DNA from: an uncultured Candidatus Micrarchaeota archaeon
GTDB lineage: Archaea > Micrarchaeota > Micrarchaeia > Anstonellales > Bilamarchaeaceae
Length of the DNA stretch: 64,000 bases
Direction of reading: 5' to 3'
NCBI GenBank assembly: GCA_963714085.1
Contig: OY970229.1
Coordinates: forward strand, 1,024,001 to 1,088,000
Positions within the stretch are counted from its first letter, which is position 1, and each line of letters begins with the position of its first letter. The position numbers were made by a program. This document shows, one piece after another, positions 33,001 through 36,000 of the stretch.

Positions 33001-36000
33001 TCCGTCTCGCCCTTGGTCCTGGACTTGCCGGTGACGTCCTTCGTGTGAATGACCTTTATGTCCGCCGGGTACTCCTTGGCGAGCCGGATGGGGCCCGCGG
33101 TCCGCACCTCGACCTTGGGCTCGTCCTTCTTCGGGGACAGCAGCGACTCCATGTCCGTCCTGCCCACGAGCGGCTTGTTGAGCGCGATTATCTTCTGGAC
33201 GAGCTCCGGGTCGCTGCTCTGGTTTAGGAACTGCTCTGCCTCGACCGAGAGCCGTATCCCCCTCTCGTCCAGCTCCTTCACCATGCCTATCGCTGCTTGG
33301 TGGCCTCGAGCTCGCCCATTATGGCCCATATCTGGGTGCGGGCATGCGCGGGCATGTTTATGTCGTCAGAAACGGATTCTATGAGGTAGATGGCCGCGCT
33401 GACCTTCACGCTGTCGTCGTCGACCCCACGCAATCTGTCCTTGGCGTCAGAGAGCGCCTTCCTTATGTTCTTGGGTATCGAATTGTCGGAAACCAGCTCT
33501 TCCAGCATGTCCGCGATCTGCCCTAGTTTCGCTGAAGCCATCTGACATCACCCTCCGCACTCAATCAACATACGGGCCCGACGAGAATCCCAGTCCGGGC
33601 GACACCGGTCGCCCGCACGTTTGAACTCGTGACCGTCAGCTGTCCTCGGCCCTCAGGCCTTAGAAGGCTGCTGCGCTATCCATTACAGGACACGGAACTC
33701 GGAACACGAGACTCGTGTCTGGCTGCGCCACGGGCCCGGCAAGTTCTCTATTGTAAATAGAAAAGTATTAAAAAATGGGAACCGGCACGCGGCCGGCCTA
33801 TTATTGGATGGAATGAAAAAATACGGTGCTTTTCAGGACTCCTCTTCCTCTTCGTCCTCTTCCTCCCAGTCCTCGTCCTCGAAATCGTCGTCTTCCCAGT
33901 CTTCGTCGTCCTGTGCTCCAAGAGGCTTCATAGGCCCACCTTCAAACATTTTGATTGCTATACTTACGAAAGGTTATTAAAGGTTTCAAAAGGCTCCGCC
34001 CGTCCTCGTACGTCCGTATTCCACGGCATAACCCGGAACAAAAATCAGTCATTTGAAAATGTAGGCTTCCCGGTTGGCCGACTGAAACAGCTGTGGAGCT
34101 CAAGTCCGTCCGCTCGGTTCTGTTTCCTGCGAGCACGGAATGGAACGCTTAGGGCTGCTCCTTTCGGCCTGACCCGGTTCACGAGGCATCCCGCCACACA
34201 GGGCAGAACGTCTACGCTTCAGGAAAAGAGGCGCAACTGAAACAGGAAACGCCCCGGGCATTCGAGCCGCCTAAGGGGATTTGCGGTGCTGGGACCCCTG
34301 GCCCCACTCTAGCCCACGATAAGGTTATGGCACGTCCTGCTATTTAAGGCTTGCTCTACGCGTTTCCATTCGAGGTTGTAAGCTCTGCACATACCCCACC
34401 AAAAATCAGATATAACGTTACTTTTTATTGATTGCTGATGTTTATTACTGGGGATATGCTATGAAATGTTACAAACATACTGATAAAGATGCGGTTGGGC
34501 AGTGCAGTTCTTGCGGGAAAGGTGTTTGTAGCAATTGCGCAGTAGACGTGAACAAGAAACTGTTTTGCAGGGACTGCGCATCAAGCGGTAATGCTTCCGC
34601 GAGCGGCAGCCAATCCCTTAAAAGACGCGACCCTGGGATAGCCGCCTTATTGAGTTTCCTCTTCGTGGGAGCCGGCCAAATCTACAACGGTGAGCTAAAT
34701 AAATTCATGATGCTGTGGGTGGCGAACATAGTGATAATCCTGGTCAGCCTCGTCCTCATGATTGTGCTGATAGGCCTCTTCACGATATTTCTTGTGATCC
34801 CGGTTTGGCTTTATGGGATTTACGACGCGTACGAGTCTGCCAAGAAGATAAACAGCCAGCTCGGGCTGGAGTAAACCCGCATTTTCGACAGTTACGATGC
34901 TTGCGTGCATCGCCCAGTCCGATGCCGAAACATCGAATACTTCATTTCATGATGAACTGGCAGAGTCAAGTTATCAATTTTTGCCTGGTCCAGCAATCAA
35001 ATTCGGGAAAAGAAAATCAGAAAATTAAAAAAGAAAATAAAACCGCTTATTTCACCTGTTTCTTCGCGAAGTCGCCGAGTACCGGCAACCCGTACTGCTC
35101 GCCCTCATACGCCTTCCATGCAAGGAAGAGGACGACCACCACTATCAGGAGATAAAACGGAAATATGCACAAGCCCCCGATGCCGGTCGTAATCGCGAGT
35201 ATCCCGGCCACAATCGAAATTGGAATGGACAGCACTATGAAAACCACGGTTACGAGCAACGACTGCCACGCGTGGAACGCGAGGAACTTATTCGTTTTCT
35301 TGTCGGTAAAGAGAACGAAAAGCGGAACGAGCACCGCGATGATATAGCAGAGCGCGCCGAATATTCCGTCATCCCCCGAGCTTGCAGCCACGGATTTTGC
35401 CGGAGCGGCATTTGACGCAGCGGCAGGTTTTTCTTCAGCCATATTATCATACCCCCATAACAGAATGTTGTTTTAGTGTCGCACGGTATATTTTTAATTA
35501 CTTAGGCCCGGGAAATCCATCTTAAGTCAAACCCAAGGCACGGCTTTAGCCGTTGGATGAAAGGGCCGAATGTGTCAGCTCCGTCGTGAGCACCGTGGAA
35601 ATCCACCTGGGAAACGCTTATAAACAGCCTTTCCGGCAAATCCTTATGAAAGCAATGCGGGCCTGGAGGTACAGAATCTACCCTTCCAGAAGCCAGGAAA
35701 AAATCCTGGACCGCCACCTCTACGAATGCAAAACCATCTGGAATTCCCTGCTGGAATACACAAAGAAGTATTATGAAGAAACAAGGAAATTCCCTGCCAG
35801 AAAGCAGCTTTACCTGCGGACAAAAGAAACCGACATCTTCTCCCAGGTAGCCCAGAATGTTGCAGACCGGCTTGCAAAATCCCTGAAAGGATTTGTCGCA
35901 AAGAGGAAAGCAGGCAGGAAGGCAGGATTCCCACGGTTCAAACCAATCGAACGGGTAAAATCTTTCACTTACCCCCAGTTCGGTTTCAAACTCGATGACA

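What a model noticed while it worked through the whole genome (the two positions that open the first line are those of the whole stretch)
34059..34319. SRP reduced to a bacterial-type particle: SRP RNA without helix 6 and no SRP19
The 261-nt SRP RNA keeps the Alu domain, helix 5 and helix 8 but has no helix 6, like the Bacillus large SRP RNA, and its binding protein SRP19 is missing here and throughout Micrarchaeota. SRP54 and FtsY are present.
Evidence so far: Best Rfam match is Bacteria_large_SRP over its full length. Helix 5 runs straight into helix 8 in this genome and 6 of 7 parsed relatives; one genome (G048, 327 nt) keeps an extra hairpin. Most of the 52 SRP RNAs found in 61 genomes are 250-280 nt against a 317-position archaeal model. 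SRP19 (PF01922) in 0 of 61 relatives and 0 of 101 phylum genomes, while it rings in three control archaea.
(Added by a program. Inside this text positions count along the whole contig: contig position 1,024,001 is position 1 of the stretch shown here. "Call 12" and the like, gene names such as g00115 and contig names such as C1 are that model's own, and its searches are not shown. The text may have been shortened before it was handed on; [...] marks where a part breaks off. The agent that wrote the report below was given it as the finding of a first reader that could run no searches.)

Follow-up and report, generated by a model that had tools for sequence, protein, structure and literature searches.

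The report
Archaeal SRP RNA lacking helix 6
This is the real gene for the RNA core of the protein-targeting particle (SRP) of a small DPANN archaeon; it lacks the arm that textbook archaea use to hold protein SRP19, that protein is missing too, and both absences run through every DPANN group sampled, so they may mark the origin of the whole DPANN branch.

Summary
Confirmed: a 261-nt SRP RNA at 34059-34319 (-) with Alu domain, helix 5 running unbranched into helix 8, and no helix 6 (covariation). SRP19 is not detectable in this genome; SRP54 and FtsY are present and archaeal. Three corrections. (1) 'Best match bacterial' is a threshold effect: 68.2 bits archaeal versus 67.6 bacterial. (2) The trait is not special to Micrarchaeota: none of 223 DPANN RNAs read has helix 6 (6 of 6 other archaea do), and SRP19 passed the cut-off in 0 of 1,035 genomes of five DPANN phyla, against 35 of 40 other archaea. 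(3) The 'extra hairpins' of long relatives are not helix 6; they lie in or 3' of helix 8 and read as tRNA-type (BHB) introns. Best reading: an archaeal SRP that works like the Bacillus large SRP, after joint loss of helix 6 and SRP19 on the DPANN stem. SRP19's absence from DPANN is already a row in a 2026 supplementary table (PMC13473441); I found no paper on the RNA. The scan found both traits before on other DNA.

The parts
34059..34319 (-). SRP RNA gene, 261 nt, no helix 6, no intron
   Evidence: RF01857 68.2 bits, RF01854 67.6 bits, covariation in 38 relatives
34341..34347 (-). TATA-like box, 22-28 nt upstream of the RNA
   Evidence: read from sequence; a loose TATA-like pattern at this distance in 23 of 28 relatives (no shuffle control); no sigma-70 site
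34264..34309 (-). Alu domain (helices 2-4) with loop-loop pairing of 34295-34298 with 34275-34278; the UGUNR motif is eroded in this copy
   Evidence: kissing pairs 100% paired, 2 of 4 with compensatory changes; alignment
34311..34317 (-). helix 1, 5' strand; pairs with 34061-34067
   Evidence: 7 of 7 pairs with changes on both sides
34181..34209 (-). 5' strand of helix 5e/5f running into lower helix 8; helix 6 would branch near 34186-34187 and is absent
   Evidence: 5' arm 34 nt here against 74-75 nt in canonical controls
34156..34180 (-). upper helix 8: asymmetric loop, SRP54-binding symmetric loop (34168-34171 with 34156-34159), 2-bp apical stem and GAAA tetraloop (34160-34167)
   Evidence: 2-bp stem typical of the phylum
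34117..34148 (-). 3' strand of helix 8/5f/5e with the conserved distal motif at 34132-34135, 20 nt after the symmetric loop as in canonical archaea
34040..34059 (-). T-runs right after the 3' end (likely archaeal terminator)
   Evidence: read from sequence; function inferred

Best explanation
A working, vertically inherited archaeal SRP made of one RNA and one protein. SHOWN: the RNA has Alu domain, helix 5 and helix 8 as one rod; helix 6 is absent; SRP19 is undetectable; SRP54 and FtsY are archaeal. INFERRED from known SRP biochemistry: SRP54's M domain binds the intact symmetric loop of helix 8 directly, since without helix 6 there is no second helix for SRP19 to clamp; the RNA-only Alu domain contacts the ribosome; the tetraloop and the distal helix-5 site keep their spacing for FtsY docking and GTPase activation, as in the Bacillus large SRP. 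INFERRED history: helix 6 (about 40 nt) and srp19 were lost together once, on the stem of DPANN, before Altiarchaeota, Iainarchaeota, Micrarchaeota and cluster-2 lineages split; Micrarchaeota later shortened the apical stem of helix 8 from 3 to 2 pairs, and several lineages gained BHB introns in helix 8. My odds: RNA real and helix-6-less 0.98; SRP19 truly gone 0.93; loss rather than never present 0.8.
For: Structure; rival hairpin fails. No helix 6 in 223 of 223 DPANN RNAs read (Micrarchaeota 101, Aenigmatarchaeota 40, Altiarchaeota-like phylum 39, Iainarchaeota 31, Nanobdellota 6, others 6; 220 by script, 3 by eye), present in 6 of 6 other archaea (5 by script, 1 by eye). SRP19 over the cut-off in 0 of 401, 0 of 301, 0 of 121, 0 of 151 and 0 of 61 genomes; found in 35 of 40 genomes not assigned to DPANN. 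srp19 lies beside rps8e in 27 of 80 random archaeal loci, not in G000. Archaeal partners: SRP54 294-333 bits to archaeal structures against at most 250 to bacterial Ffh; FtsY 285 against 162, in the ribosomal-protein cluster. PMC13473441 Supplementary Data 25: SRP19 0% in all 12 DPANN groups, presence probability 1 at the archaeal root, 0.3 at the DPANN ancestor. SRP19 deletion is harmless in Haloferax and archaeal RNA binds SRP54 without it (PMC2905702). The helix-8 tetraloop drifts from GNRA in 19 of 38 Altiarchaeota-like RNAs, as expected once the helix 6-8 contact is gone.
Against: No binding or expression data. Direction rests on the archaeal root, which PMC13473441 itself calls unresolved. 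The uniform 33-36 nt arm could be forced by function, so it does not prove a single event. The same table lists SRP19 at 0% in Hadarchaeota, outside DPANN, so SRP19 can be lost or missed elsewhere. The genome search missed SRP19 in 1 of 4 control archaea and in 5 of 40 sampled genomes (3 clearly non-DPANN drafts, one of them with helix 6). G000 is 87.65% complete by markers. Undinarchaeota and Hadarchaeota RNAs were not sampled; the Altiarchaeota label is inferred.
Confidence: 0.74

Rival explanations
1. Primitive absence: DPANN branched off before helix 6 and SRP19 arose, and keep the ancestral particle shared with Bacillota and Thermotogota; helix 6 and SRP19 are innovations of other archaea plus eukaryotes.
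For: No trace of helix 6 in 223 RNAs or of SRP19 in 1,035 genomes, including a phylum with genomes up to 2.5 Mb and acetyl-CoA synthase; the bacterial large model fits DPANN RNAs but did not ring in the canonical control archaea. A DPANN root is one of the published hypotheses (PMC13473441 abstract).
Against: The best-fitting models in PMC13473441 root within or next to Euryarchaeota and put SRP19 at the root with probability 1; SRP19 is dispensable, so loss is easy; DPANN RNAs score up to 176 bits on the archaeal model.
Confidence: 0.13
2. Several independent losses in reduced genomes that converged on the same rod.
For: SRP19 is dispensable and listed at 0% in Hadarchaeota; the spacing between tetraloop and distal site may allow only one outcome.
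Against: No exception or intermediate among five phyla and 34 Micrarchaeota families; larger, probably free-living genomes lack it too.
Confidence: 0.07
3. A strongly diverged SRP19 or an unrelated protein still serves the particle.
For: Genome-wide searches use a first-look filter that missed Sulfolobus (control lines).
Against: Its binding site is gone; unfiltered profile search of G000 gives 10 bits against 34-104 for held-out members; the 10 weak phylum hits score at most 11.8 bits on my profile and those inspected lie in a Bud32-like kinase, a zinc-ribbon protein or long unrelated frames; the rps8e neighbour slot is empty.
Confidence: 0.04
4. The RNA was replaced by a horizontally acquired bacterial large SRP RNA.
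For: Near tie of the two models here; bacterial model higher in 4 of 20 RNAs compared.
Against: Archaeal model higher in 16 of 20 despite the penalty for the 38-position gap; 41 of 41 Iainarchaeota and 36 of 40 Altiarchaeota-like genomes pass the archaeal cut-off; archaeal promoter and partners. No RNA tree with bacteria was built.
Confidence: 0.02

Closest known systems
Canonical archaeal SRP (7S) RNA with SRP19 and SRP54, Rfam RF01857 (Methanocaldococcus, Archaeoglobus, Sulfolobus; PMC2905702)
   Same: Helix 1, RNA-only Alu domain with kissing loops, helix 5 with the 5e region, helix-8 SRP54 site, spacing to the distal motif, archaeal SRP54 and FtsY.
   Different: No helix 6, no GNAR loop, no helix 6-8 clamp, no SRP19; apical stem of helix 8 has 2 pairs, not 3; below the family's cut-off.
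Bacterial large SRP RNA (Bacillus scRNA type), Rfam RF01854
   Same: Alu domain + helix 5 + helix 8 as one rod, one protein partner, about 260-275 nt; passes the cut-off (67.6 bits).
   Different: Sits in an archaeon with archaeal SRP54, FtsY and promoter; 2-bp apical stem; resemblance is of architecture.
Haloferax volcanii srp19 deletion strain (as reviewed in PMC2905702)
   Same: Archaeal SRP that works without SRP19.
   Different: Laboratory deletion with helix 6 intact; here both are missing in nature across a superphylum.
Permuted, circular SRP RNA of Thermoproteus (PMC4731332)
   Same: For relatives only: BHB motifs at helix 8 read by the tRNA splicing endonuclease; the paper proposes intron-bearing ancestors.
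   Different: Thermoproteus keeps helix 6 and SRP19; the window's own gene is neither permuted nor interrupted.

Membership tests
Canonical archaeal SRP RNA (RF01857) | Alu domain with helices 2-4 and loop-loop pairing, closed by helix 1 | tested here: met
Canonical archaeal SRP RNA (RF01857) | Helix 8 with SRP54-binding symmetric loop and GNRA tetraloop | tested here: met
   apical stem one pair shorter
Canonical archaeal SRP RNA (RF01857) | Helix 6 with GNAR tetraloop 5' of helix 8 | tested here: not met
Canonical archaeal SRP RNA (RF01857) | SRP19 encoded in the genome | tested here: not met
   genome 87.65% complete by markers
Canonical archaeal SRP RNA (RF01857) | Score above gathering cut-off 96.5 | tested here: not met
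   68.2 bits
Canonical archaeal SRP RNA (RF01857) | Archaeal-type SRP54 and FtsY | tested here: met
   best hits to archaeal structures; gene cluster
Bacterial large SRP RNA (RF01854) | Alu domain, helix 5 and helix 8 without helix 6 | tested here: met
Bacterial large SRP RNA (RF01854) | Score above gathering cut-off 60 | tested here: met
   67.6 bits
Bacterial large SRP RNA (RF01854) | Bacterial host, Ffh and FtsY of bacterial type | tested here: not met
   rps8e groups with named Micrarchaeota, SH-aLRT 96
Bacterial large SRP RNA (RF01854) | Descent from bacterial RNAs | tested here: inconclusive
   archaeal model higher in 16 of 20; no tree, no bacterial large RNA was obtained
Any SRP | RNA binds SRP54 and stimulates the SRP54-FtsY GTPase cycle | not testable with these tools
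   needs reconstitution

The most novel reading that the evidence does not exclude
The helix-6-less, SRP19-less particle is not a reduction but the ancestral state: DPANN keep the SRP that the last universal ancestor had (as Bacillota do), and helix 6 plus SRP19 arose after DPANN split from all other archaea and eukaryotes, which would be direct structural evidence for a root of Archaea on the DPANN branch.
Probability: 0.13. Interest if true: 0.88.

Novelty: new variant of a known kind. Interest (0 to 1): 0.6.

Why it matters
Helix 6 and SRP19 are treated as hallmarks of archaeal and eukaryotic SRP (PMC2905702 reports SRP19 in all archaeal subgroups and a helix 6-8 clamp likely in all their RNAs). 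A whole superphylum without either breaks that rule and supplies a natural one-protein archaeal SRP for asking what helix 6 and SRP19 add. As a rare genomic change shared by Micrarchaeota, Iainarchaeota, an Altiarchaeota-like phylum, Aenigmatarchaeota, Nanobdellota and nanohaloarchaea, it is an alignment-independent character for the disputed monophyly of DPANN, and it makes two clear tests (Undinarchaeota, Hadarchaeota). Practically, 99 of 125 Micrarchaeota SRP RNAs fall below the archaeal Rfam cut-off and are missed or labelled bacterial. The introns in relatives would make an essential RNP depend on the tRNA splicing enzymes.

Tried and rejected
Free-energy folding of the single RNA is uninformative (z = -0.65) and gives a wrong structure; its 5' hairpin, a possible stand-in for helix 6, is 58% paired in 38 relatives, no better than shuffles. 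A first Alu structure had helix 3 out of register (48% paired) and was corrected. Weak PF01922 hits in relatives rejected. ESM Atlas search with one SRP19 outside PF01922 clusters gave no usable hit, which shows neither absence nor novelty. Viral-contig scan for the helix-8 motif gave mostly chance matches and no bacterial large SRP RNA among 20 of 80 loci scanned; three handles labelled bacterial gave none either, so no RNA tree with bacteria. A loose splice search produced false introns and was replaced by a fixed-boundary test. Pattern search for tetraloop introns found 5 of 401, 2 real; I read one of the other three (inside a gene), and the backwards control gave 6 matches; a 53-nt and a longer intron were found later by the RNA model. 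No second copy of the shared intron motif stood out in 5 genomes. For the intron-bearing G074 locus no RNA holder was listed, and the one run laid gave no reads: no evidence either way. Exact look-up gave no names for the unlabelled phylum. Sigma-70 scan: nothing. Papers: ten searches found no description of a helix-6-less archaeal SRP RNA or of SRP RNA introns; PMC7203096 holds the terms beyond the part that could be read, and only 3 small supplementary files of PMC7414124 were held, so its gene tables were not seen.

Full report
THE LOCUS. The minus strand at 34059-34319 matches the archaeal SRP model over all 317 positions with 68.2 bits (E 2e-14); the 38 model positions of helix 6 face 3 nt. 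At curated cut-offs only Bacteria_large_SRP shows, with 67.6 bits, because its cut-off is 60 and the archaeal one 96.5. The gene is single-copy in G000, has a TATA-like box 22-28 nt upstream and T-runs at its end. G000's rps8e groups with three named Micrarchaeota (SH-aLRT 96, quick tree, 129 columns), which supports the phylum given.

STRUCTURE. Folding one sequence is no help (z = -0.65). On 38 aligned insert-free Micrarchaeota RNAs, a rod in which helix 5 runs into helix 8 is 89.5% paired, 28 of 32 pairs change on both sides, no shuffle of 500 reaches this, and slid controls give 35-45%. The 5' hairpin of the free-energy fold, a candidate stand-in for helix 6, is at chance. Helix 1 and the Alu domain hold (85% paired, kissing loops 100%). 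Kin inflate such counts, but the slid controls keep kinship.

HOW WIDE. RF01857 found the RNA in 125 of 141 phylum genomes, only 26 over the cut-off (tallies include the unpublished G029, whose sequence I did not read). I read 73 of these (30 best-scoring, all of 277 nt or more, family-diverse others, 2 weak hits) and 28 more from unsampled families and earlier misses (28 of 40): 101 genomes, 34 families. The 5' arm from helix 5e to the SRP54 site is 33-36 nt throughout (seven read by eye), against 74-75 nt in the three controls that the script parsed. A scan for an rps8e motif gave a random set of named archaea, from which other phyla were reached. RNAs were found in 41 of 41 Iainarchaeota, 39 of 40 Aenigmatarchaeota, 39 of 40 genomes of a 61-genome phylum that I infer to be Altiarchaeota from genome sizes of 0.8-2.5 Mb and acetyl-CoA synthase in 3 of 5 (PMC13473441 passages), and in Nanobdellota and nanohaloarchaea. 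Of 223 DPANN RNAs read, none has a GNAR-capped hairpin 5' of helix 8 (220 by script, 3 by eye); 6 of 6 other archaea do (5 by script, 1 by eye). Two of the 223 come from genomes with no phylum call.

SRP19. PF01922 passes its cut-off in 0 of 401 Micrarchaeota, 0 of 301 Nanobdellota, 0 of 121 Iainarchaeota, 0 of 151 Aenigmatarchaeota and 0 of 61 Altiarchaeota-like genomes. In 50 of 78 random archaeal handles it was found in 0 of 10 DPANN (9 by title, 1) and 35 of 40 others; of the 5 misses two look like mislabelled or unlabelled DPANN, three are drafts of other archaea, one of which has helix 6. Since this search missed Sulfolobus, I built a profile from 28 hits and ran it unfiltered over 20,075 six-frame stretches of G000: best 9.7 bits, E 1.5. 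Cross-group profiles score held-out SRP19s at 50-104 bits and three diverged Thermoplasmata ones at 34-51 (the seeds were the strongest hits, so this overstates sensitivity somewhat). srp19 lies within 2.5 kb of rps8e in 27 of 80 random loci; in G000 nothing similar lies there. The ten weak phylum hits are spurious.

PARTNERS. SRP54 (contig 520116-521456) and FtsY (ending 1016365) are present. Both match archaeal structures best (SRP54 294-333 bits against at most 250 for bacterial Ffh; FtsY 285 against 162; species of the top entries from Table 1 of PMC2905702), and ftsY sits in a cluster of ribosomal-protein genes. The archaeal RNA model scores higher than the bacterial in 16 of 20 RNAs compared.

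THE LONG RELATIVES. No long RNA keeps helix 6. In 29 RNAs of families f9-f11 an insert of 15-62 nt lies on the 3' strand of lower helix 8. With its boundaries fixed from canonical spacing, all 29 form a bulge-helix-bulge (central helix 4 of 4 in 26), shuffled inserts do so in 1.7% of trials; 9 of 11 further cases fall on the same site. Four Micrarchaeota, seven Aenigmatarchaeota and one Woesearchaeota RNA carry inserts in or beside the tetraloop whose removal at the BHB cut sites restores the SRP54 motif (one register ambiguous); one Altiarchaeota-like insert (L443) was not resolved. These genomes are related, so the 29 are not independent. The Micrarchaeota endonuclease cuts strict and relaxed BHB motifs (PMC3239211, abstract), and PMC4731332 proposes intron-bearing SRP genes as ancestors of the permuted Thermoproteus RNA (passages). 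Splicing was not shown. The window's own gene has no insert.

MECHANISM. Shown: architecture, absence of SRP19, archaeal partners. Inferred: SRP19 clamps helices 6 and 8, archaeal RNA binds SRP54 without it, and its deletion is harmless in Haloferax (PMC2905702, section 4 read whole). With helix 6 gone SRP19 has no site, and SRP54 should bind helix 8 directly as Ffh does. The distal motif lies 20 nt after the symmetric loop here and in controls, so the geometry used for FtsY docking and GTPase activation (recalled from work on the E. coli particle) is kept. The Alu domain works as RNA alone in archaea anyway. Drift of the tetraloop away from GNRA in 19 of 38 Altiarchaeota-like RNAs fits release from the helix 6-8 contact, but also shows that the loop is not kept for bacterial-style docking in all DPANN.

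HISTORY. PMC13473441 (passages and supplement rows) lists SRP19 at 0% in all 12 DPANN groups, Undinarchaeota and Altiarchaeota included, and reconstructs it with probability 1 at the archaeal root and 0.3 at the DPANN ancestor; its main text never mentions SRP. I therefore favour one joint loss on the DPANN stem. Against: that paper calls the root unresolved, and the same row gives 0% for Hadarchaeota.

WHAT IS KNOWN. PMC2905702 (passages) reports SRP19 in all archaeal subgroups and a helix 6-8 clamp likely in all archaeal RNAs. Passages of PMC5498576, PMC11606122, PMC10266531 and PMC6098224 mention DPANN SRP parts or SRP19 without noting this. Ten searches found no description of the RNA; subscription papers and SRP database reviews are largely outside the library, PMC7203096 was read only in its first 300,000 characters, and the gene tables of PMC7414124 were not held. 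The scan's own notes report the helix-6-less RNA in at least eight other genomes and SRP RNA introns in two; these are unchecked repeats, not support.

VERDICT. Real; it works like the Bacillus large SRP, is archaeal by descent, and fails the helix-6 and SRP19 tests of the canonical archaeal family. New variant of a known kind, DPANN-wide. Interest 0.6: the protein half is in a published table and dispensability was known, but the RNA half appears undescribed, breaks a textbook rule, and gives a testable character for DPANN monophyly.

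Noticed in passing
L010, L029, L033-L045, L047-L049, L051-L059, L453, L454 (SRP RNAs of families f9, f10, f11); also L524, L529, L531, L533-L535, L537-L539, L541, L542: 15-62 nt inserts on the 3' strand of lower helix 8, all at one site. With boundaries fixed from canonical spacing, 29 of 29 form a bulge-helix-bulge (central helix 4 of 4 in 26, 3 of 4 in 3; shuffled inserts 1.7%); in 9 of 11 further RNAs the best motif fell on the same site, 2 were mis-anchored by the script. Kin without the insert exist in the same families. Probably introns; splicing not shown.
   Followed up: partly
L031 (G139), L032 (G074), L523 (G156), L540 (G298); L501, L508, L510, L509, L513, L511, L506 (Aenigmatarchaeota); L390 (Woesearchaeota): Inserts in or next to the helix-8 tetraloop with BHB geometry; cutting after the second bulge base restores the SRP54 motif exactly (L540 by eye; L506 register ambiguous). 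PMC4731332 proposed such intron-bearing SRP genes as ancestors of the permuted Thermoproteus RNA.
   Followed up: partly
window 34160-34167 (-) and phylum: The apical stem of helix 8 has 2 pairs in 95 of 101 Micrarchaeota RNAs (4 more are interrupted by introns, 2 have 3 pairs), against 3 pairs in other DPANN and controls.
   Followed up: yes
L397, L404-L432, L443-L451; L389, L391, L399: Helix-8 tetraloop is often UGAC, UGGC or UGAU rather than GNRA in the Altiarchaeota-like phylum (19 of 38), in some Aenigmatarchaeota and in nanohaloarchaea. G426 holds two near-identical SRP RNA copies 16 kb apart.
   Followed up: partly
window about 33565-33738 (-): tRNA-Arg(UCU) gene with three probable BHB introns (about 33683-33720, 33642-33660, 33587-33619), missed by Rfam and ARAGORN; recognised after removing them (several registers pass).
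   Followed up: partly
window 27998-29188 (-): tRNA splicing endonuclease of about 390 aa (PF01974, PF02778), the length expected for the three-unit epsilon-2 type of Micrarchaeota (PMC3239211 abstract); the three tRNAs that Rfam finds in the window all carry inserts.
   Followed up: no
G000:C1:1014506-1016365 (L082; about 8 kb before the window): Prefoldin alpha and FtsY lie in one 619-aa frame without a stop between them: a lost stop codon, an assembly error or a true fusion; FtsY has its own start just after the junction.
   Followed up: no
window 35553-36809 (+): IS200/IS605 TnpB gene (NF040570, 295 bits) 1.2 kb from the SRP RNA gene; no link seen.
   Followed up: no
L046, L050, L060, L487, L499, L511, L512, L536: Extra hairpins in the Alu domain between helices 3 and 4; not tested as introns.
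   Followed up: no
L281, L247, L259, L309, L285 and similar rows: Several records titled 'Methanosarcinales' group with Woesearchaeota by rps8e, and one titled Colwellia groups with Nanosalina and has a helix-6-less archaeal-type SRP RNA: record titles look wrong.
   Followed up: partly
   Followed up: no
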